NCBI GenBank assembly: GCA_951406725.2
Contig: OX597841.1
Coordinates: 10,540,001-10,604,000, forward strand
Source: Octopus vulgaris
Lineage: Eukaryota
DNA length: 64,000 bases
Reading direction: 5' to 3'
The position numbers were made by a program, and so were the translations under genes. Positions 28,581 to 60,707 of the stretch are shown here, in pieces. Every line of letters begins with the position of its first letter. The stretch's first letter is position 1. Under the pieces are notes generated by a model that saw nothing but the letters and a program-made list of their open reading frames with translations, ran no database searches and was not told where the DNA came from.

Positions 28581-28890
28581 TGATTGATTGATTGATTGAT
28601 TGATTCTAGTTTCAGCTTATGAGCTGTGGCCATGCTGGGGCACCGCCATTTGGTGTTGCTACTTGGTTTTACTTAACGAAAGCTTTTTTGCAACTGCCAT
28701 TTGGTGCATGAGAGAGTTCGATGCAGCTGCCCTCATCTGCACCTCCTGCCGTGACGTTGGTTCATCTGGGACACCTGACAGGAAGAGATCCAGTTTCATT
28801 TTAAAGACATGTGCATCCACCCCATGCAGGTCTCTCAGGTTCTTCGGGAGGATATTGAAGAGCTGTGGGCCTCGGAAGCCGAGGCTATCA
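28581..28890 (-). mobile_element. 3'-terminal LINE fragment, partial unit 6
   Basis: Tail, 3' UTR and last ~70 RT codons; joined abruptly to Gypsy-like sequence at 28890/28891. Confidence 0.9.
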
Positions 28891-31013
28891 CACTGCTTCC
28901 TCCACTCCACGCGGAGTGGAGGAAGCAGTGTTAGGGCAGTCGACGGAAGGGAAGTGCACGTGGAGTGGAGTAAGCAGTGTTAGGGCAGTCGACGGAAGAG
29001 AAGTGCACTGCGAAGTGGTTACCGATGCGCAGATTGTGGTGCAGGGACTACAGCTGATGTTGCGAGAAATTGTGGTTGGTCACTTGGTGGACGAGATTGA
29101 CGTGGTGATGGGGATGGATGCAATATTCCGCTTTGGAGGTGTCACCGTCAACGAGGCTGGCGTCACGTTTGGGTTAGCGGGGAAACCGTGTAGGGCGAGA
29201 CCACGCACCGACGACAAGCGTGAGGTAAAGGATGCGGCGCACACCATTGAAGACCAGGATTTTCGGGCTGTCTTTGATGGCAAGAGGTGGACAGTGGAGT
29301 GGCACTGGAAGGGAGAGCCCCCGATGTTAAAGAATAAAGTGGGCTGCTATCAGCATACTCTAAAAGGAGATGCCAGAAGTGAGTTCGAGGGGGAAGTGGA
29401 GCGGTGGATTAAGGAGGGCATACTGATCCCTTGGGAAAAAGAAGAGAGCGGAGTCCTGCCACTGATGGCGGTGATACAGCCCACAAAGCATAAGGTCAGG
29501 CCAGTGCTTGACTTCCGAGAGCTGAATCACCACGTGTTGTGTCATACAGGCGGCGAGGCCACGTATGTCTGCGGAGACACCTTGCGAGAGTGGAGGCAGA
29601 CGACGGGGGCCTCCACGATTGTCGATTTGAAGTCGGCATACCTACAGGTGCATGTGGCTGAGAAATTATGGAAGTACAAGCTCGTCCACCAAGTGACCAA
29701 CCACAATTTCTCGCAACATCAGCTGTAGTCCCTGCACCACAATCTGCGCATCGGTAACCCCTTCGCAGTGCACTTCTCTTCCGTCAACTGCCCTAACACT
29801 GCTTCCTCCACTCCACGTCTCTGCCACTTCTGTGGTCATCAGAGTCGTCGTACAGCCCGCGTCCACCAGGGCTCGCGACATCTTCCCCTTCACCAGAATG
29901 TCGACCACAGGTAACGATGATAAACGCGCCGCTACTAATCCAAAGGGATAACTACCGGTGCAGTAGTCTCCCGCGGTCCGTTTCCCCGCAGACACTCGCT
30001 GGCTACATGCCCTGGCTCTCGACACCGGTAGCAAACCACCTCTCGCTTGGGCGACGCGCAGTCGCGGACCATGTGTGGGCCTTGGCACCGGAAACACTGT
30101 CCTTTGAACGATCGCACGCGTTCTTTCCTCAGCCCCTCTCCGTTGCTCCTAGCTGGGCCACTTTTCGACGTTACAGTCGCTGCTACCGACGTCAACCTGC
30201 TGCACGAAACCAGTACACGTGCCCGCGATATGATATCGGCCATCGGCATCGAACGCACGTTCGGGAGCTTCTGTAGCTCGACCGACATGATGTCGGGAAA
30301 GCCGGTCACGAACGCTAACCTAACCGTCCGTTCTAGCGACTCTCCCTCATATCCCGCCAGTTTAGCCAACCTTCTAATCTCACCGGCGAACACGTCCACC
30401 TGTTGTCCGGTCCATCTCATTCTACCCAGCCGAGCGTACGCTTCAAATATTCCTTCCGCGAAGGGCTCCATAAGTCAGATCTCCACTTTATCTTCGCTGA
30501 GTTGGTCCGTCTCCTCCATCTCTAAATATAACGCCAAGGCCGGGCCATCCAAATACAACGGCATAAAACTAGCCAGGTCAGCTATACCGTGGAGCTTCGC
30601 CACCAACTTTACCCTCTTCAACCAAGCGACCACATCGGTGTCGCCGCAAAACGGTGTTATAGGCTCGCGTGAAACCATAGCACTCTGCATAATTTTCTAC
30701 TTTTATTTTTTACGAAACCGAATGATTATTTGCCGAAATAGCTTGTAGTATGAAAAGAGTACAACAGAACAAGGAAAGGAATGGAAATGTAATTGGGTCT
30801 TACCTGGCCGGAGATGAACTCGGATCGCCTTTAGCCAACTCGCTCGCGTCGTGTCTTCTCGGTGTCTTCGTCGTGTCTGGTGCAACTGGTCAATGCCGCA
30901 CGTGCGTTCTGTCTGTCACTTCTGCTTCCGCTCGCGCATGCGCCCTGCAAGACCTGCAAGCCCCATTTCCGCTCCCCCCCCATTCCGTCACACTCCTTCA
31001 CCATCACACCACA
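28891..31013 (-). mobile_element. Gypsy-like LTR retrotransposon family A, copy 1 (5' LTR 30744-31013, gag, protease, inverted pro-RT segment; 3' half lost)
   Basis: LTR TG...CA; gag 30690-29935 with an in-frame stop and two zinc knuckles (CFRCQGPHMVRDC, CYRCREPGHVASEC); ALVDAG protease site; plus-strand RT segment (VRPVLDFRELN, IVDLKSAYLQ) at ~28910-29686. Confidence 0.9.
30731..30743 (-). promoter_or_regulatory. Atypical primer-binding site AGCTATTTCGGCA (family A)
   Basis: Directly abuts the 5' LTR end; identical to the family B PBS; complementary to tRNA-Phe nt 1-12. Confidence 0.8.
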
Positions 31014-33837: not shown

Positions 33838-33901
33838 TTGCAACCGATGTTTTATGTGTTCTTATGATTGCAACAATAGTGGTAAGTATAAGCGGAATAG
33901 T

Positions 33902-33985
33902 GGAGGCACATAACCTAGTGGTTAGAACAGCGGACTCGCGGTCGAGAATTCGCGGGTTCGAATCTCAGACCGGGGGATGTGTGTG
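33902..33985 (+). mobile_element. tRNA-like head of a SINE (family 3), split by LTR insertion; body resumes at 41989-42225
   Basis: A-box-like TAACCTAGTGG and B box GGTTCGAATCT; GTGTG on both sides of the inserted LTR element. Confidence 0.7.
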
Positions 33986-34282
33986 TGTAGTGTGAACGGT
34001 GAAAAGAGTACAACAGAAAAAGGGAGAATGGAAATGTAATTGGGTCTTACCTCGTCGGAGATGAACTTGGATCGCTTTTAGCCAACTCGCTCGTCTGGTC
34101 CCTTCGTCCTGTCTTCCGCAACTCCTCAATGCTGCACGTGCGTTCTGCCTGTCACTTCCGCTTCCTCCGGCGCATGCGCCCTGCAAACCCTGCAAGCCCC
34201 ACTTCCGCTCTCCCCCATCCGCCACACTCCTTCACCACACACCACACGCCCCCCTGATCTACAGATCACTGAACCGGCTTCC

Positions 34283-36065
34283 TCACTCACTCCCGCACCT
34301 GAAACTGGTTTCATAATCAGCCAACCAGGGAGGAGGGTGCCGCTCCCTCTGTGGTCGCAGTGCGACCCTAGGACTTGTACCTGGCGTGTTGCCGCCGACC
34401 TCGTCATCCTGTCTGTTGTTTTCGTCTTGCCCACTGCTGCTGGCCCCATCCTCTGGGGCATGGACAATCCTCCGTATGTTCAAAACGTGGCGTGGCATAC
34501 CATCGACCGAGATGTTATTCTTTGAATTTACGGAGGTTATTGTCCCCTTTCCCCATTGCGATGTACACCGTGCGTTTGGGGGTTTTACCCAGACTTCCTC
34601 CCCGACCTGCACGAAGGCGTGCTCTTCCTCTGCCCCGGGTCGCTTTGATGTAGTACACGGATGCCTCCACTCGTACCTGAATATTGCCCTGTGTGGCACC
34701 GACTCCTCAGCCTGTCCTGATCTGGGCGACATATTGTACCAAAACACGGCCTCGACTGGTGAAATGTGACCCCTCTCTGCCATGGCCTTGATGGTACGAT
34801 GATGCCTTTCCACCACCCCGTTTCCACTTGGCCGGTATGCCGCCCTGAAGAAGCGGTTGACCTTCCACTCATCAAGCATTTCTCTCAGCACATCCGAGCG
34901 AAATGCAGTGCCGTTGTCCAGAAGCAGTTCATCCACGGGGCCTCGTTCCAGGAATATCTCATTCAACACTTTCACAATTTCTTCTGCGGTCCCCGACTTC
35001 ATCTCCCTTCACCCGCCCCGGTCTGCAGTCAATCATTGAGAGGTATGTCCCCTGCCGGTAGTGTGTTATGTCCACCGCCAGTCGTCTCCAGTCCTGGTCC
35101 ACTGGAATACTTCCCGCTTCATGCACGACCGGAGCAGGGTCGATGGACTGGCACCTGTCACAACTGCTAACCACTCTCTGCACGCTCTGTCTTGTTACGT
35201 CGGAGTCAACTTTTCTGGCTATGAACAATGTCCTGTCCACACCCATGTGATGCATGGTGTGTAGTCTCCGTAACTCCGAGTCGCTCAGACGGCATACTGC
35301 AGCTACATCCTGCTTCGCATTCCTCTGGCACCTTCAACCAGGCTCGCTTTACCCTGGTCAGGACGTCTTCCCTGTTCTTCTCAGAAGGCACAAAGATCAC
35401 GCTCAGCTTCAGATTGAACTCAGTGGTTAGTTCACGCAGTATTCCTAATCGACGCTTTACCAGGATCTCTGCAGCCCCTTTGGTCCGCACCCTCCTCTCA
35501 TCGGTGATGACTGCTGTCGCCCAACCAAGTACAGTGGCCGAATCAGTCCTGATTTCTATGGTGTGCAACCCCCACTTCAAGGCTAGGTTCACCCCCTTCA
35601 GCACGGCATCCAACTCCGCCACGTTGATGTGATTGCAGTCATCCATCTTCCTGAGCCAGGCCGCATCTTCCACCGTGACACCTCCCACTTCCAAGACGAC
35701 CCCTATTGCGATGCTACTGGCGTCACACCATACGATCCCGCTCTTTGATTTGGGAACATACCAGCTGCCCCTCACCGGGTCCTCTGCTCCTACTCTGACC
35801 AAGACTTCCTGCATCATGTCGATTGTCCTCTCCCCCACTTTATCATTCCACTTCACTCCTTCGGCTCGTCTCTTGATGAAGCTACATGCTGTCCGGAGCC
35901 AGCCTGCAATCGGGTAGTGTCCCACCAGCTTCCCACACACAGAGAACAGTTCCCGTCTACTCATGCTGGCGCCCAGTTCAGGGACCTCATTCCCTCGCCG
36001 GAACACCAAGGCGCCGGCCTTGTCTCTCCATAGCTTGAGGCCCAGTGCAGCACCTCCCTCCATAG
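34283..36065 (-). pseudogene. pol: Family A pol: RT thumb, RNase H and integrase (frameshifted)
   Basis: WCDASS, NVAELDA, RTDSATV, HHMG..CDRC, AVDITHY, LDNG, GVVERHH spread over three ORFs. Confidence 0.88.
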
Positions 36066-37929
36066 CCACAATTGCTCGCAACGTCAGCTGTAGTCCCTGC
36101 ACCACAATCTGCGCATCCGTAACCCCTTCGCAGTGCACTTCTCTTCCGTCGACTGCCCTAACACTGCTTCCTCCACTCCACGTGGAGTGGAGGAAGCAGT
36201 GTTAGGGAGTGGAGGAAGCAGTGTTAGGGCAGTCGACGGAAGAGAAGTGCACTGCGAAGGGGTTACGGATGCGCAGATTGTGGTGCAGGGACTACAGCTG
36301 ACGTTGCGAGAAATTGTGGTTGGTCACTTGGTGGACGAGATTGACGTGATGATGGGGATGGATGCAATCACCCGCTTGGGAGGTGTCACCGTCAACGAGG
36401 CTGGCGTCACGTTTGGGTTAGCGGGGAAACCGTGTAGGGCGAGACCACGCACCGACGACAAGCGTGAAGAAAAGGATGCGGCGCACACCATTGAAGACCA
36501 GGATTTTCGGGTTGTCTTTGATGGCAAGAGGTGGACAGTGGAGTGGCACTGGAAGGGAGAGCCCCCGATGTTAAAGAATAAAGTGGGCTGCTAGCAGCAT
36601 ACTCTAAAAGGAGATGCCAGAAGTGAGTTCGAGGGGGAAGTGGAGCGGTGGATTAAGGAGGGCATACTGATCCCTTGGGAAAAAGAAGAGAGCGGAGTCC
36701 TGCCACTGATGGCGGTGATACAGCCCACAAAGCATAAGGTCAGGCCAGTGCTTGACTTCCGAGAGCTGAATGACCACGTGTCGTGTCATACAGGCGGCGA
36801 GGCCACGTATGTCTGCGGAGACACCTTGCGAGAGTGGAGGCAGACGGCGGGGGCCTCCACGATTGTCGATTTAAAGTCGGCATACCTTCAGGTGCATGTG
36901 GTTGAGAAATTATGGAAGTACCAGCTCGTCAGGTATAGGGGCCGGACGTACTGTCTGACCAGGTTGGGATTCGGGCTGAATTCAGCGACGAAGATTATGG
37001 CAACAATTCTCAAGGCAATCCTGGGGAAGGTGGACAGAGTAAAAAGGGCCACCAATTCATACATCAACGACATTCTGGTGGATGCCACTTCCGTAGTCAT
37101 CAGGGTCGTTGTACAGCCCGTGTCCACCAGGGCTCGCGACATCTTCCCCTTCACCAGAATGTCGACCACAGGTAGCGATGATAAACGCGCCGCTACTAAT
37201 CCAAAGGGACGACTACCGGCGCAGTAGTCTCCCGCGGTCCGTTTCCCTGCAGACACTCGCTGGCTACATGCCCTGGCTCTCGACACCGGTAGCAAATCAC
37301 CTCAGGCTTGGGCGACGCGCAGTCACGGACCATGTGTGGACCTTGGCACCGGAAACACTGTCCTATGAACAGTCGCACACGTTCTTTCCTCAGCCCCTCT
37401 CCGCTGCTCCTAGCTGGGCCACTTTTCGACGTTACAGTCGCTGCTACCGACGTCAACCTGCTGGACGAAACCAGTACACGTGCCCGCGACATGATATCGG
37501 CCATCGGCATCGAACGCACGTTCGGGAGCTTCTGTAGCTCGACCGACATGATGTCGGGAAAGCCGGTCACGAACAGCTAACCTAATCGTCCGTTCTAGCG
37601 ACTCTCCTGTGGGATGACGTCAGCAGCAGGACGTCAGCCAGCGGGGTGCGTTGACCGGAAGCTGGGGCAAGCGGAAGGGGTCAGCCGTCAAGCGCGCGCA
37701 GTTGATCTTTCCAACGTGGGTTGACAAGACGTGCGAGGTGACAAGACGTGCGAGGTGACAAGACGTGACAAGACGTGCGAGGAAGTCGCTAAAGGGTTTG
37801 GGGCTAGCAGCTGCTATCGTTAGTGTTCGGGTAGGGGCTGTGAGGAAGGACCAGCCATCTCGGGAGGATCTCCGTCACCACGAAGAGAAGGTAGGTGCCT
37901 CTATATTCAAATCGCACACACTCACTACA

Positions 37930-37942
37930 AGCTATTTCGGCA
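37930..37942 (+). promoter_or_regulatory. Atypical primer-binding site AGCTATTTCGGCA (family B)
   Basis: Immediately 3' of the 5' LTR; reverse complement TGCCGAAATAGCT contains the tRNA-Phe 5' end. Confidence 0.8.
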
Positions 37943-37973
37943 GTTCGTAAACATTCACATTTTTTTCAACACG

Positions 37974-38738
37974 ATGTCTGCAAAAATTAGGATCGCCAGT
38001 GACGTCGTCAGACCTTTTAACGGCGAAGGCGATGTAGTGGCCTGGATTCAGAAAATCAGGCTGGTGGCGAGACTGCAGGGCATAAGCGACGTGGCGAGTC
38101 TTATGGCGCTGTATTTGGAAGGGAGTGCGTTGTCACTTTACCTAGAGATGGATGTCGAAGAACGGCTCTGCGATGAGAATATAGAGCGGCGCTTGTGTGA
38201 CGCATACACGGAATGCGAGTACACAGCTTTCGCTAAGCTAGGTGCAATCAGGTGGACGGGAGGCCAGGTGGATGATTTTGCATCGGAAGCTAGAAGGCTA
38301 GCGACTCTGGCCGGGTTTGCCGGAGAAGAACTGGAGAGAGCAGCCCGACTGGCGTTCGTGAATGGGTTCCCCGACGATGTAGGGATTCACCTACAACGAC
38401 TGCCCGGGGTCAAAAAGATGCCATTGAGCGAACTTGTAACTCATGCTCGCGCGTTGACGAGACACTCTGGGCGGAAGGCGATAGCGATGGCGGTGACGGA
38501 GGCGCGTAAAGACGGACGACGTCCCGAGAAAGAGGTACAGAAGCCCACCGTGCAACGAGAGCGGCCGTTCTCAGGACGGTGTTTTAGATGCCAGGGACCG
38601 CACATGGCGCGGGACTGTACGCAGCCGGGGCCCGTTTGCTATCGATGCAGGCAGACAGGGCACATTGCCCGTGATTGCGGCCGGGGAAACGACCGCGGGG
38701 AAGTTGCTGCCTCTCGAACTTTCCCCTCAAACGAGTAG
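37974..38738 (+). CDS. gag: Gag (254 aa) with two zinc knuckles
   Basis: CFRCQGPHMARDC and CYRCRQTGHIARDC; homologous to family A gag. Confidence 0.92.
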   Translation: MSAKIRIASDVVRPFNGEGDVVAWIQKIRLVARLQGISDVASLMALYLEGSALSLYLEMDVEERLCDENIERRLCDAYTECEYTAFAKLGAIRWTGGQVDDFASEARRLATLAGFAGEELERAARLAFVNGFPDDVGIHLQRLPGVKKMPLSELVTHARALTRHSGRKAIAMAVTEARKDGRRPEKEVQKPTVQRERPFSGRCFRCQGPHMARDCTQPGPVCYRCRQTGHIARDCGRGNDRGEVAASRTFPSNE

Positions 38739-41556
38739 AGGCGCTATTGGAGACGCTGCCATTGATTGACGTGGAGGCCGAGGGGGAGACGTTCAAGGCC
38801 CTTGTGGATACGGGCTGTACGACCACCCTGGTGACTTCGAGGGTGACGAAGGAATGGAACGGGGTGTGTAGTGTCCGGGCGGTCGACGGCAGCGAAATCC
38901 GTTGCAGAGGCAGCAGCAAGGTAGAGATAGTGGTGCGCGGCGCGACGCTAAGGCTACAGGCAATTGTGGCCGAACGCGTGATAAATGGAGTTGATGTGGT
39001 GATGGGGATGGACGCCATCAACTGCCTCGGTGGCGTCAGTGTTGTGGGAAATGAGGTCACGTTCGGAAGCGTGGGGGCGTCGTGCACTGCGAGTCAGGAT
39101 CGCCAGAGGGAGCAGAGCCCCACGAGGGACTGCGCCGCTTACACCATCGAGGACAAAGACTTCCAGACGGCGTTCGATGGTCAGCGGTGGACGATAGAGT
39201 GGAAATGGAAGGACGAGCCCCCGACACTGGAGAACAGGGTGAGCTGTTACCAGCATACCCTGAAAGGCCACGCCAGGGTTGGGTTTGAAGACGAGGTGGA
39301 GAGGTGGATCGAGGAAGGGGTCCTTGTCCCTTGGAAGGAGGAGGTAGCGGGCGGAGTGCTACCCCTGATGGCGGTGGTGGTGCAGCCTACGAAGGGAAAA
39401 GTCAGACCGGTGCTGGACTTCAGGGAGCTAAACCAGCACATATCGTGTCACACGGGAGGTGAGGCGACAGACGTTTGTGGTGAGGCATTACGTAAGTGGA
39501 GACAGTCGACTGAGGCAGCGACGATTGTCGACTTGAGATCGGCATACTTGCAGCTCCATGTGAGCGACAAACTATGGCGATATCAGCTGGTGCGGTACAA
39601 GGGCCGGACGTACTGTCTAACCAGGCTGGGTTTCGGGCTGAATTCCGCTCCGAAGATCATGGCGGCAGTGCTTAGGTCCGTCCTAGGGAAAGACGGCAAG
39701 ATTAGGAAGGCCACCAGCTCCTACATTGACGACATTTTGGTGGACGAAACTGTAGTGCCAGCCGACGAGGTAGTGAGACATCTGGAGAAGTTCGGACTGG
39801 TTGCTAAGCCACCGGAGTCGATTGAAGGGGGAGCCGCGCTGGGGCTGAAGCTGCGAAGAGATAGATCAGGTGAATTGGTGTTCTGGAGAGGAAATGAAAT
39901 CCCAGAGCTGAGTTCCAGCGTCAGCAGGAGAGAGCTGTTCTCGGTGTGTGGGAAGTTGGTCGGTCACTACCCGATCGCTGGATGGCTGCGCACGGCGTGT
40001 AGTTACACCAAGAGACGAGCAGAAGGAGAGAGGTGGGGCGACAAGGTGGGAGAAGGGACGGTGGCGATGATGCAGGAGATCCTAGAGAGGACAAGAGCGG
40101 AAGACCCGGTCAGGGGAACTGGTACGTGCCCAAGACGAAATGCGGGACCGTCTGGTGTGATGCTAGCAGTATAGCGATAGGGGTGGTGTTGGCAATCGAA
40201 GGCACTGCGGTGGAGGACGCGGCCTGGCTTCGGAAAGCAGACGATTTCAACCACATCAATGTCGCCGAATTAGACGCGCTGCTGAAAGGGGTGAACTTGG
40301 CCTTGAAATGGGGGCTGCGCACGATTGAAATGCGGACGGATTCGGCCACTGTGCTTGGCTGGGTAGGATCGGTGATCACCGGTGACAGGAGAGTGCGGAC
40401 GAAAGGTGCTGCGGAGATGTTAGTGAAGCGCCGTCTAGGAGTTCTAGGTGAATTGATCGCCGAATTCGGACTGAAGCTGAACGTGGTCTTCGTGCCTTCG
40501 GAGAAAAACAAGGCGGACGTACTGACCAGGATGAAAAGGGCGTGGTTGGAAGAACCGGAGGAGGCCCGGAAAGGGATAGCTGCGGCGTGTCGGTTGGATG
40601 ACTCTGAACTGAAGAAACTGCACGCTATGCATCACCTGGGTGTGGACAGGACCCTGTATCTGGCGAAGAAAATTGATGCTGACGTCACTAGGAGAAGCGT
40701 CCGGAAGGTGGTCGGGAGCTGCGACAGGTGTCAGTCCATCGACCCTGCTCCGTGTGGGCATGAACAGGGAAGCCTTTCCGTGGAGCAGAACTGGAAAAGG
40801 CTAGCTGTGGATGTGACACACTACCGTCAGCGAATGTACCTCTCCATGGTCGACTGTGGGCCGGGCCGGCTGGCCATTTGGAGGGAGTTGAGATCGGGCA
40901 TTGCTGACGAGATCGTGCAGATCCTGAACGGGATATTTTTAGAGAGAGGTCCCGTGGAAGAACTACTGATGGACAACGGGGCGGCGTTTCGTTCGGAAGC
41001 ATTGAGGGTTATGCTTGATCGGTGGAACGTGCGACGCTTGTTCAGAGCAGCGTATAGGCCGGGCGGTAACGGGATCGTGGAGAGGTACCATCGGACAGTC
41101 AAGGCCATAGCGGAAAGAGGGCATATTTCGCCGCTTGAAGCAGTTTTTTGGTACAACTTGTCTCCCCGATCCGGACAGGCTGAGGAATCTGTGCCGCAGA
41201 GAGCTGTGTTCAAATATGAATGGAGGCACCCGAGCAAAGCGCCAGAGGGTCACGAGGAAGAGAAGGGACCCGTTCGCGTGAAAATAGGGGAGGAAGTCTG
41301 GGTCAAGCCACCAAAGGCGCGCTGTACGTCTCAATGGAGCAGAGGAACGGTGACGGCGATCAATTCCAGAAGCAACGTATCCGTAGATGGCACACCACGA
41401 CATGTCTTGGACCTTCGCAGGATTGTTGCTTCGACGGACGATGATTCGGGAGAGGGGGAGAGTGAGGAGCCCAGCTTGAGAAGATCTCGACGAGCAAGGC
41501 GTTCTCCCGGTTGGATGGTAGACTACAACATGGAGCGGAGAGATTGTGATCTTTAA
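38675..41556 (+). CDS. pol: Pol (protease-RT-RNase H-integrase), one frameshift at ~40115
   Basis: ALVDTG, YIDD, WCDAS, HHLG..CDRC and DDE motifs in Gypsy order; the G-run at 40113-40116 is one base short relative to the in-frame family A sequence (DPVRGSWYVP). Confidence 0.9.
38684..38742 (+). promoter_or_regulatory. -1 ribosomal frameshift signal (G GGA AAC plus H-type pseudoknot)
   Basis: Slippery heptamer in gag frame with pol in the -1 frame; stem 1 38697-38705/38717-38726, stem 2 38709-38714/38737-38742. Confidence 0.8.
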
Positions 41557-41988
41557 GATCAGGGTGGCGTGTGGGATGACGTCAGCAGCAGGATGTCAGC
41601 CAGCGGGGTGCGGCAAGCGGAAGGGGTTAGCCGTCAAGCGCGCGCAGGGGGCGGAAGTTGACCTTTCCAACGTGGGTTGTGCTGGTGACAAGACGTGCGA
41701 TGAAGTCGCTAAAGGGTTTGGGGCTAGCAGCTGCTATCGTTAGTGTTCGGGTAGGGGCTGTGAGGAAGGACCAGCCATCTCGGGAGGATCTCCGTCACCA
41801 CGAAGAGAAGGTAGGTGCCTCTATATTCAAATCGCACACACTCACTACACTCCCTCATAACCCGCCAATTTAGCCAGTCTTCTAAGCTCATTGGCAAACA
41901 CGTCCACCTGTTGCCCAGTCCATCTCATTCTCCCCAAGCCCCACTTCCGCTCTCCCCCATCCGTCACACTCCTTCACCACACACCACA

Positions 41989-57906: not shown

Positions 57907-60113
57907 TTACATGAAAAACAGGAATATTAAGAAAAAGAACCGAAGAAACAATTAGAAATTAGTCTTTTCCTTTCTCTTCTCTCTGAATACATTTGTGTGC
58001 AGTTAAATTACTACATTTAGTGAATGATTTACCACAGACATTACAATAATATGGCTTCTCTCCTGTATGAGTACGTTTGTGTGAAGTTACGCTATAACTT
58101 TGTGAGAATGATTTACCACAGATATCACAGTGATATGGTCTCTCTCCTGAATGAAGATGTCTGTGTTTAGTTAAGTCACTATTTTGTGAGAATGATTTAC
58201 CACAGATATCACAGTTATATGGTCTCTCTCCTGAATGAAGACGTCTGTGTTTAGTTAAGCCACTATTTTGTGAGAATGATTTACCACAGATATCACAGTG
58301 ATACGGTCTTTCGCCTGAATGAAGACGTCTGTTTAGTTAAGTCACTATTTTGTGAGAATGATTTACCACAGATATCACAGTGATATGGTCTCTCTACTGA
58401 ATGAAGACGTCTGTGTTTAGTTAAGCCACTATTATCAGGGAATGATATACCACAGATATCACAATGATAAGGTTTCTCTCCTGTATGAATACGTTTATGT
58501 CTAGTTACGTCATTATTGCGGATGAAAGATTTACCACAGATATCACAATGATATGGCTTCTCTCCTGTATGAATACGTTTGTGTTTAGTTAATTTACCAT
58601 TTTCAAAGAAAGATTTACCACAGATATCACAATGATATGGCTTCTCTCCTGTATGAATATGCCTGTGTGCAGTTAATTTACCATTTTCAAAGAAAGATTT
58701 ACCACAGATATCACAGTGATATGGCTTCTCCCCAGTATGAATACGAATGTGCTTATTTAAGTCAGAATTTTGAGAAAATGATTTGTCACAGACATTACAG
58801 TGATATGGCTTCTCTCCTGTATGAATACATTTGTGTTTAGTTACGTTATGATTGCGGATGAAAGATTTACCACAGATATCACAGTGATATGGTTTCTCTC
58901 CTGTATGAATACGTATGTGTATTGTTAGGGCAGTACTTCCAGAGAAAGATTTACCACAGATATCACAGTGATATGGCTTTTCCCCTGTATGAATACGTTT
59001 ATGTCTAGTTACGTCATGCTTGCGGATGAAAGATTTACCACAGATATCACAGTCATATGGCTTCTCCCCAGTATGAATACGTAAGTGTATTGTTAGGGCA
59101 GAACTTCCAGAGAATGATTTACCACAGATATCACTGTGATATGGCTTCTCCTCAGTATGAATACGTAAGTGTATTGTTAGGGCAGTACTTCCAGAGAATG
59201 ATTTACCACAGATATCACTGTGATATGGCTTCTCCTCAGTATGAATACGTAAGTGTATTGTTAGGGCAGTACTTCCAGAGAAAGATTTACCACAGATATC
59301 ACAGTGATATGGCTTTCCCCCTGTATGGATACGTTTATGTCTAGTTACGTCATTATTACGGATGAAAGATTTACCACAGATATCACAGTCATATGGCTTC
59401 TCCCCAGTATGAATACGTAAGTGTATTGTTAGGGCAGAACTTCCAGAGAATGATTTACCACAGATATCACTGTGATATGGCTTCTCCTCAGTATGAATAC
59501 GTAAGTGTATTGTTAGGGCAGTACTTCCAGAGAATGATTTACCACAGATATCACAGTGATATGGCTTCTCCTCAGTATGAATACGTAAGTGTATTGTTAG
59601 GGCAGAACTTCCAGAGAATGATTTACCACAGATATCACTGTGATATGGCTTCTCCTCAGTATGAATACGTAAGTGTATTGTTAGGGCAGTACTTCCAGAG
59701 AAAGATTTACCACAGATATCACTGTGATATGGCTTCTCCTCAGTATGAATACGTAAGTGTATTGTTAGGGCAGTACTTCCAGAGAATGATTTACCACAGA
59801 TATCACTGTGATATGGCTTCTCCTCAGTATGAATACGTAAGTGTATTGTTAGGGCAGAACTTCCAGAGAATGATTTACCACAGATATCACAGTGATATCG
59901 CTTTTCCCCTGTATGAATACGTTTATGTCTAGTTACGTCATGCTTGCGGATGAAAGATTTACCACAGATATCACAGTGATATGGCTTTTCCCCTGTATGG
60001 ATACGTTTGTGAGTAATTAATTGACTATTTGCAGAGAATGATTGACCACAGACATCACAGTGATACGGTCTCTCTCCTCTATCTATTTCTATAATCTTCT
60101 CACTCTTTTCCAT
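57907..60113 (-). CDS. C2H2 zinc-finger gene 2, ~25 fingers, frameshifted in finger 21 (possible pseudogene)
   Basis: ATG at 60113; 84-bp finger repeats; ORF stops at 58293 after a 2-bp deletion at ~58330, but four more fingers continue to TAA at 57907. Confidence 0.85.
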
Positions 60114-60707
60114 TATTATTTCTCTCAAATCACAATGTAAATATACTTTTCTTGTTTTTCTTCTTATCGTTTAATCTCACAAATACTTCCACTCCTGATT
60201 TTCTCTCCATTGTTTCCCTGCTCTAATAACATTTATGTAAACGTATCCAAGCACACAAACTCATCTTCTCGGCACTGCAGACAGTGATGTGCAAAACTTT
60301 GGCTAATCACATCAGATTAGAACAAATATTTCACAGAAATTCACAGCATATATATAGAAAGTGTTATAGAATTTGTATAGAATTTTCTTTCAGTTTCAAA
60401 AGATGATAAATACTGAGAATAGATCTTCTGTTATTCCAATGTCATCCGATATTCTGAACTAATAAACAAACAACAGTGTAAGATAAAGAAGCTGCTTTCA
60501 AAATAGAGATTCAACAGTGGAAAATTGACAACATTTCTACAGAGATAAACTTTAGAAATAAGCATTTACCCGAACAACTGAACTTTTTAATGTATTAAAA
60601 TTTACATCCCAGAATCTTGTGTGTAGCTTACATATTTGTAAACCACAGCTACACCTTCACATTGTGTAAGATTATTTGGATTAAACTGCAGAAGAGCAGG
60701 TAATAAC

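What the first reader, a model, noticed from the sequence alone, without database searches (positions are those of the whole stretch)
37930..37942. Two LTR families share a primer-binding site complementary to the 5' end of tRNA-Phe, not a tRNA 3' end
Seen: families B (37930-37942, +) and A (30731-30743, -) have LTRs that are dissimilar except at their tips, yet both are followed with no spacer by AGCTATTTCGGCA, after which similarity stops. There is no TGG start and no complement inside either LTR, which argues against Tf1-type self-priming. Established: metazoan tRNA-Phe(GAA) begins GCCGAAAUAGCU-CAG and ends UUUCGGCA-CCA, so the PBS pairs exactly with nt 1-12 and its last 8 nt copy the 3' acceptor strand plus discriminator. 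Inference: minus-strand synthesis is primed by a 12-nt 5' tRNA fragment. That needs strand invasion of the acceptor stem and a cut after U12, possibly by the element's RNase H. This differs from both 3'-CCA priming and copia/Ty5 half-tRNA priming.
Basis: partly seen in the sequence, partly recalled or inferred. Interest (0 to 1): 0.85.

Follow-up and report, generated by a model that had tools for sequence, protein, structure and literature searches.

The report
Retrotransposons primed by tRNA 5' ends
A widespread, unusually divergent group of animal LTR retrotransposons has a primer-binding site that pairs with the first 12 bases of a tRNA rather than with its 3' end or anticodon arm, which points to a fourth, apparently undescribed way of starting reverse transcription.

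Summary
Confirmed and extended. Both elements are TG…CA LTR retrotransposons of one very divergent lineage (DUF7047 RT). The 12 nt after the 5' LTR are the exact complement of nt 1-12 of host tRNA-Phe(GAA). CA+site occurs 152 times in the genome against 10 for the control.

All 44 distant metagenomic relatives that hold the gag junction keep such a site. In 34 of 44 it pairs 12/12 with nt 1-12 of a real tRNA gene, including other tRNA-Phe variants and switches to tRNA-Lys and tRNA-Met in the same register. It follows the 5'-strand complement, not the 3' strand. Base 13 is not conserved, so the 'acceptor plus discriminator mimic' is a by-product.

Self-priming, 3'-CCA priming and half-tRNA priming are not supported. 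It is not Troyka.

Best model: the tRNA 5' end invades the site, is cut after nt 12 (most likely by the element's RNase H, Tf1-like) and primes minus-strand synthesis. Priming and cleavage are inferred, not shown.

Ten literature searches and four look-ups in this scan found no prior description. Repbase, GyDB and Dfam could not be checked.

The parts
37608..37929 (+). Element B 5' LTR (TG...CA)
37930..37941 (+). Element B primer-binding site, 12 nt, exact complement of tRNA-Phe(GAA) nt 1-12 (37942 is not part of the conserved block)
37974..38738 (+). Element B gag with two CX2CX4HX4C knuckles
38675..41556 (+). Element B pol (protease, RT with YIDD and DUF7047 thumb, RNase H, DDE integrase); in this copy split over two frames near 40100-40170
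38684..38690 (+). Slippery heptamer-like site in the gag/pol overlap (pol in the -1 frame); function inferred
41556..41569 (+). Polypurine tract directly before the 3' LTR
41570..41849 (+). Element B 3' LTR; this insertion has a 4-bp target duplication
30744..31013 (-). Element A 5' LTR (TG...CA)
30732..30743 (-). Element A primer-binding site, the same 12 nt
28860..30731 (-). Element A leader, gag and truncated, partly inverted pol; no 3' LTR
33986..41988 (-). Second A-type element (3' LTR 33986-34246; 5' LTR remnant about 41935-41988, PBS deleted; 5-bp target duplication), interrupted by element B

Best explanation
The 12 nt after the 5' LTR are the minus-strand primer-binding site of a distinct, deeply divergent LTR retrotransposon lineage of animals, and the primer is the 5'-terminal 12 nt of a host tRNA (ancestrally tRNA-Phe; some sub-lineages use tRNA-Lys or tRNA-Met). 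Step 1 (shown as sequence complementarity and covariation): the PBS pairs with tRNA nt 1-12, with nt 12 opposite the first base after the LTR's CA. Step 2 (inferred, energetically feasible): the site invades the acceptor and D stems, probably helped by the Gag zinc knuckles. Step 3 (inferred): the tRNA is cut after nt 12 to give a 3'-OH. The most likely nuclease is the element's own RNase H acting on an RNA duplex, as Tf1's RT does on its own transcript 5' end. Step 4 (inferred): RT extends this 12-mer through U5-R. Plus-strand strong-stop synthesis later copies the 12-mer to its natural 5' end, regenerating a 12-nt PBS that tracks whichever tRNA primed. This explains the sharp 12-nt boundary and the multi-base switches. 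Odds: about 0.85 that the tRNA 5' segment is the primer, about 0.6-0.7 that the element's RNase H makes the cut given that.
For: Position and exclusivity: the site abuts the LTR CA in 30 of 30 gag-picked host copies (24 exact, 6 with one mismatch in 13 nt) and in 44 of 44 metagenomic relatives that hold the junction (gag identity mostly 22-36%). Conservation stops at 12: positions 2-5 are invariant in 41 of 41 and position 13 is free. Variation sits mainly opposite tRNA nt 4-7. 34 of 44 sites pair 12/12 with nt 1-12 of a fetched tRNA gene: host Phe type (11), two other natural Phe types (10, 9), Lys (2+1), Met (1). The Met-type site differs from the Phe type at 5 positions, including position 1, all matching. 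Only 1 of 256 such 12-mers would match the library. For Lys and Met the PBS equals the 5'-strand complement, not the 3' strand. Each of five tested sites binds its own tRNA best. Pairing does not extend into the LTR (0 of 41 at -1 and -3). Duplex energy is -18.7 to -20.4 kcal/mol against about 14.7 to open the two stems. The four RNase H acidic residues are nearly invariant in 51 aligned proteins. PBS types recur in separate branches of the RT tree (quick tree).
Against: No primer, cut site or cDNA end was observed. Hosts of the metagenomic contigs are unknown, so host-by-host covariation is not shown. Most library genes matching the third commonest type are archaeal, with a few eukaryote-like contaminant copies, and one Lys match rests on a single host gene. 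9 of 44 sites keep 1-2 mismatches to my limited library of 78 5' ends and one needs a G-U; three (L080, L111, L127) mismatch opposite tRNA nt 1-2. The tRNA pattern was written after seeing the variants. The Met switch is one locus, with its LTR end inferred from position. No auxiliary pairing that would help invasion was found. The energies ignore tertiary structure and modified bases. The 2 nt between the G-run and TG at the U3 end leave open a 2-nt-processed end and a cut after nt 10.
Confidence: 0.6

Rival explanations
1. Same primer, but the 12-nt 5' tRNA fragment is made by a host nuclease (a D-stem/D-loop 5' fragment, trimmed) and packaged ready-made.
For: Avoids strand invasion. 5' tRNA fragments are a described class (PMC7472051 passage). 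Half-tRNA primers of copia-type elements show that cut tRNAs can prime.
Against: The same exact register in Phe, Lys and Met is more simply explained by an element-encoded ruler than by three host cuts. No data on 12-nt fragments could be obtained.
Confidence: 0.17
2. The duplex spans nt 1-12 but the cut lies after nt 10, leaving two extra bases at the U5 end that integrase removes, as in retroviruses.
For: At the U3 end a G-run is followed by two further bases before TG in host families, which could be a matching 2-nt extension.
Against: In L092 position 1 changed together with tRNA-Met nt 12, which is expected if nt 12 is part of the copied primer. This is one case only.
Confidence: 0.1
3. 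The intact tRNA anneals through nt 1-12 and RT primes from an internal 2'-OH (retron-like branch), with no cleavage.
For: Needs no nuclease and fits the same register. Branch priming is known in retrons (recalled).
Against: No LTR element is known to me to do this. The residue at the junction differs between primers (U12 against G12), and RNase H is conserved for other reasons anyway.
Confidence: 0.06
4. The site binds tRNA for another purpose (packaging, dimerisation, translation control) and priming happens by another route such as self-priming, protein priming or a 3'-CCA site elsewhere.
For: No direct priming data exist.
Against: It occupies the canonical PBS position and ends exactly at the LTR boundary. 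No TGG site is present. LTR complements are no better than shuffled LTRs in 14 of 14 elements (6-100 of 100 shuffles as good; -8.6 to -14.8 against -20.4). Duplexes of four tested sites with the 3' ends of four tRNAs are weak.
Confidence: 0.06

Closest known systems
Tf1/Sushi self-priming (S. pombe Tf1, S. japonicus Tj1; PMC4600332 passages)
   Same: The primer is the short 5'-terminal segment of an RNA that pairs with a PBS next to the LTR and must be cut out of a longer RNA. In Tf1 the cut needs RT's RNase H (Levin 1996, title seen in the reference list only).
   Different: Here the RNA is a host tRNA in trans, no complement exists in the LTR, and the RT is only remotely related to Ty3/Gypsy RTs.
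Half-tRNA priming of Drosophila copia, yeast Ty5, Osser, Bianca, fungal Copia/Helenus (PMC10886601 section 3.6; PMC6317226 passages)
   Same: A 3'-truncated tRNA primes, and the primer tRNA can switch while the register is kept.
   Different: There the PBS pairs with the anticodon arm and the elements are Ty1/Copia. Here it pairs with nt 1-12 (acceptor 5' strand and D-stem start) and the domain order is PR-RT-RH-IN.
Canonical 3'-CCA tRNA priming (retroviruses, most Gypsy, BEL, Saci2/lennie)
   Same: PBS directly after the 5' LTR, host tRNA, TG...CA ends, PPT, mostly 5-bp target duplications.
   Different: No TGG start and the opposite end of the tRNA is used, so a cleavage step (or branch) is required.
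Troyka / Kuafuorterviruses (PMC12440569, PMC11673190)
   Same: Aquatic-animal LTR lineage outside the classical clades, PR-RT-RH-IN order, no tether or env.
   Different: Troyka has CG...CG ends, 3-bp TSD, CX2CX8-10HX4C knuckle and (I/V/L)ADD. This lineage has TG...CA, 5-bp TSD, CX2CX4HX4C and YIDD.

Membership tests
Troyka/Kuafu | 5'-CG...CG-3' termini | tested here: not met
   TG...CA in both window elements and in full-length host copies (definition)
Troyka/Kuafu | 3-bp target duplication | tested here: not met
   Of 29 two-LTR loci: 5 bp in 14 (12 independent sites), 4 bp in 6 (one nested insertion), none called in 4, not assessable in 5
Troyka/Kuafu | CX2CX8-10HX4C knuckle and IADD/VADD/LADD motif | tested here: not met
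   Two CX2CX4HX4C knuckles and YIDD (definitions)
Ty3/Gypsy (Metaviridae) | LTRs with TG...CA, 4-6 bp TSD, pol order PR-RT-RH-IN | tested here: met
Ty3/Gypsy (Metaviridae) | RT and RNase H fall inside the Gypsy clade | tested here: inconclusive
   0 of 20 scanned members hit PF17917/PF17919 at E<=0.01. Lineage RT profile scores only 12-25 bits on host Gypsy RTs, RNase H none, integrase up to 73 bits. The tree had only 4 host Gypsy rows as outgroup. The only outside hits among long proteins were weak Gypsy-type ones (24-33 bits)
BEL/Pao | Peptidase_A17 (PF05380) thumb/RNase H region and long pol | tested here: not met
   0 of 20 members. Pol is about 950 aa. Two degraded host BEL loci give RT E>=0.03
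DIRS | Tyrosine recombinase instead of DDE integrase | tested here: not met
   DDE integrase and direct LTRs with TSD
DIRS | RT/RNase H of DIRS type | not testable with these tools
   Resemblance by eye to DIRS rows in the supplement of PMC11673190. No DIRS sequence could be fetched; host recombinase loci held no RT
Self-priming (Tf1 type) | PBS complementary to a segment of the 5' LTR | tested here: not met
   14 of 14 elements no better than shuffled LTRs. The transcript start itself is unknown
Half-tRNA priming (copia/Ty5 type) | PBS complementary to the anticodon arm; Ty1/Copia domain order | tested here: not met
   Best duplex with whole tRNA-Phe is nt 1-12; integrase follows RNase H
3'-CCA tRNA priming | PBS starts TGG and pairs with a tRNA 3' end | tested here: not met
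   None of 44 junction sites starts TGG. Weak duplexes with 3' ends, tested for 4 sites against 4 tRNAs only
Saci2/lennie clade | RT-RH-IN clade membership; PBS to tRNA 3' ends (Leu and others); Pol about 1327 aa | tested here: inconclusive
   PBS type and Pol length differ; no sequence comparison was possible
Any Repbase/GyDB/Dfam entry | Prior deposition or description of this lineage and its PBS | not testable with these tools
   These databases are not held

The most novel reading that the evidence does not exclude
An unrecognised superfamily-level lineage of LTR retrotransposons (marked by Pfam DUF7047, from sponges to molluscs, arthropods and nematodes) whose RT measures 12 nt from the 5' end of a host tRNA and cuts the RNA duplex with its own RNase H to make its primer. 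This would be a fourth priming mode, joining tRNA use with Tf1-like cleavage.
Probability: 0.4. Interest if true: 0.92.

Novelty: new variant of a known kind. Interest (0 to 1): 0.82.

Why it matters
A survey of plant elements lists three primer types for LTR elements: whole tRNA, half tRNA cut in the anticodon stem, and self-primer (PMC6317226 passage). A 5'-terminal 12-mer would be a fourth, held across a whole lineage in many animal phyla. It implies an RNA-duplex cleavage of a host tRNA, offers a possible link between tRNA priming and Tf1 self-priming, and predicts that 3' tRNA fragments, which silence CCA-primed elements, cannot block these elements while 5' fragments could. Annotation tools that look for 3'-end PBSs would report 'no PBS', which may be why this was overlooked. 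The site also gives a simple diagnostic for a lineage whose RT standard Pfam profiles barely detect.

Tried and rejected
Troyka: rejected on four features. Saci2: papers describe 3'-end PBSs.

Pairing of base 13 with a pre-tRNA leader U: rejected, base -1 is A in 37 of 39 genes. Discriminator mimicry: rejected.

A second, PAS-like pairing of U5 with the D arm appeared in co-folds but was no better than shuffles: mean z +0.42 in 26 host U5 ends and -0.42 in 39 relatives, 4 of 65 below -1.64. No conserved 7-mer complement to other tRNA parts was found in 14 full elements.

Switched-PBS elements in the host genome: 75 pattern matches against 64 control, and 0 of 14 fetched were followed by gag/pol.

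Viral contigs hold no relative. Expression: no RNA holder listed; four runs were contigs only and show no starts or ends. DIRS references: seven recombinase loci had no RT nearby. The careful tree did not finish and only the quick tree is used. The structure job never returned. The ESM Atlas gave only general RT/integrase look-alikes. Solved-structure searches gave only weak retroviral RT and integrase hits. Five papers on Tf1, Ty5 and priming reviews were not held. Earlier scan notes returned concern other primer types.

Full report
OBSERVATION. The 13-mer lies at 37930-37942 (+) and 30731-30743 (-), with no other match in the window up to two mismatches. Element B is a complete LTR retrotransposon: 5' LTR 37608-37929, gag 37974-38738 with two CX2CX4HX4C knuckles, pol 38675-41556 (protease, RT, RNase H, DDE integrase; split over two frames in this copy), polypurine tract, 3' LTR 41570-41849. 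It sits inside a second A-type element on the minus strand (33986-41988). A and B are sister families (gag 47%, RT 61%), so their agreement shows conservation, not two origins.

HOST GENOME. The genome is a 2.8-Gb animal assembly; the closest named protein is from Argonauta. CA+13-mer matches 152 times against 10 for the reversed control. The 30 first-listed matches are all followed by gag and/or pol of this lineage. Picking loci by gag alone, the 30 best of 150 matches all carry the site at the LTR end (24 exact, 6 with one mismatch in 13 nt; one is the window itself). Five weaker gag matches carry it with 1-3 mismatches. Full-length copies are about 4.2 kb, TG...CA, many with LTR identity above 97%. 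Of 29 two-LTR loci, 14 have a 5-bp duplication (12 independent sites), 6 share B's 4-bp nested insertion, 4 had none called and 5 could not be assessed. Host tRNA-Phe(GAA) genes start with the exact complement of PBS positions 1-12 (85 matches). The base before the gene is A in 37 of 39, so base 13 does not pair.

RELATIVES. A pol alignment of 51 proteins retrieved 70 metagenomic loci. A gag N-terminal profile built without regard to the PBS found the junction in 44; 2 held gag without the junction and 24 had no gag start. All 44 have the site, 41 of them within 60 nt of the gag hit; a few loci are near-duplicates. In 41 sites (three dropped as duplicates or too short) positions 2-5 are invariant, positions 6-9 vary most, positions 10-12 are 38-40 of 41, and position 13 is free. 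L102 has both LTRs and shows the same zero spacer. Named relatives come from a sponge, a bryozoan, barnacles, a sea spider, decapods, a gastropod, a cephalopod and Trichuris.

THE VARIANTS ARE tRNA 5' ENDS. Against 78 distinct 5' ends of tRNA genes fetched here (host genes and tRNA-Phe genes from two collection scans), 34 of 44 sites pair 12/12 with nt 1-12: host Phe type 11, two other natural Phe types 10 and 9, Lys 3, Met 1. One more needs a single G-U; 9 keep one or two mismatches. Of 8 non-host variants with the common flanks, 4 match exactly where about 12% (31 of 256) would by chance. The Met-type site matches where 1 of 256 would. Caveats: the library is small, partly archaeal, and the pattern was written after seeing the variants. 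In Lys and Met the acceptor stem has wobble or mismatch pairs and the PBS follows the complement of the 5' strand, not the 3' strand. This settles that the site is antisense to nt 1-12 and that the resemblance to the 3' acceptor strand in Phe is a by-product. Each of five tested sites binds its own tRNA best, and pairing stops at the LTR boundary. PBS types recur in separate branches of a quick RT tree. Position 4 is always T, so only tRNAs with A9 appear to be used; that G9 is commonly methylated and would block pairing is recalled, not tested.

MECHANISM. Self-priming is not supported: in 14 elements the best LTR complement is no better than in shuffled LTRs. No second pairing with the D arm survives a shuffle test. 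The 12-bp duplex (-18.7 to -20.4 kcal/mol) outweighs opening the acceptor and D stems (about 14.7) in a secondary-structure model. A primer needs a hydroxyl at nt 12, so the tRNA must be cut, supplied as a fragment, or used through a 2'-OH. I favour a cut by the element's RNase H. Its acidic residues are conserved, the register is identical for three tRNAs, and Tf1 provides the precedent of an RT that frees the 5'-terminal segment of an RNA from a PBS duplex (PMC4600332 passages and the title of Levin 1996 in its references). Copying of the primer to its natural 5' end during plus-strand synthesis would explain both the 12-nt boundary and five concerted changes in the Met switch. All of this is inference; no cut, primer or cDNA was observed.

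CLASSIFICATION. All 20 scanned members carry DUF7047 (by position, the RT thumb) and none hits the Gypsy RNase H or BEL profiles. The lineage's RT profile scores 12-25 bits on host Gypsy RTs, its RNase H profile none, its integrase up to 73 bits. It is not Troyka, not BEL by profile and not DIRS by integrase. Membership of Gypsy is unresolved because only host Gypsy rows were available as outgroup.

LITERATURE. Ten searches found no description of this site, of DUF7047, or of priming from a tRNA 5' end. What I saw of each paper: PMC12440569, parts 1-4 of 5, no mention of PBS or tRNA, supplement unavailable. PMC11673190, parts 1-2 of 3, supplement parts 1-2 of 29 and term searches that found neither the site nor three of four lineage RT motifs (the fourth hit only a DIRS row; long DNA rows are cut there). 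PMC10886601, passages and section 3.6. PMC6317226, PMC4600332, PMC7472051, PMC12859917, PMC4558846, PMC6238403, PMC8556966 and PMC7773854, passages only. PMC12471100, abstract and passages. Subscription journals, Repbase Reports, GyDB, Dfam and unseen supplements may hold the lineage under a Gypsy name, and possibly a note on its PBS. Four look-ups in this scan's notes found no earlier report of it.

VERDICT. A real, lineage-wide feature with strong comparative support for tRNA nt 1-12 as the primer, an untested cleavage step, and no prior description found. New variant of a known kind; interest 0.82.

Noticed in passing
window 1-28900: About five tandem copies, 97-99% identical, of a 5.66-kb unit holding a LINE (ORF1 plus endonuclease-RT) with a 200-nt internal repeat and microsatellites.
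   Followed up: no
window 38675-41556 and relatives P0004-P0123: The lineage's RT and RNase H are far from host Gypsy while the integrase is Gypsy/retrovirus-like; by eye the RT resembles DIRS and BEL rows. Possibly an unclassified superfamily-level group marked by DUF7047.
   Followed up: partly
window 33986-41988; L425-L429, L432: B is nested in the gag of an A-type element. The same insertion junction occurs at six other loci of the genome, so the composite or its surroundings were duplicated.
   Followed up: partly
window 38684-38690: Slippery heptamer in the gag/pol overlap, also present in family A, suggesting -1 frameshifting; other relatives have fused gag-pol.
   Followed up: no
window 58293-60170 (-): Open frame with about 20 tandem C2H2 zinc fingers.
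   Followed up: no
window about 33900-33980: tRNA-like SINE head by eye, directly beside the end of the A-type element; ARAGORN calls no tRNA.
   Followed up: no
G000 C18 30147728-30157146 (L051): Tandem array of over 40 tRNA-Phe genes at 200-bp spacing; host tRNA-Met(CAT) genes carry a 21-22-nt intron.
   Followed up: no
L459-L465: Tyrosine-recombinase frames without a nearby RT, probably Crypton-like DNA transposons.
   Followed up: no
L218-L263, L239, L245, L250: Eukaryote-like tRNA-Phe genes, some in tandem arrays, inside bacterial MAG contigs, probably host contamination.
   Followed up: no
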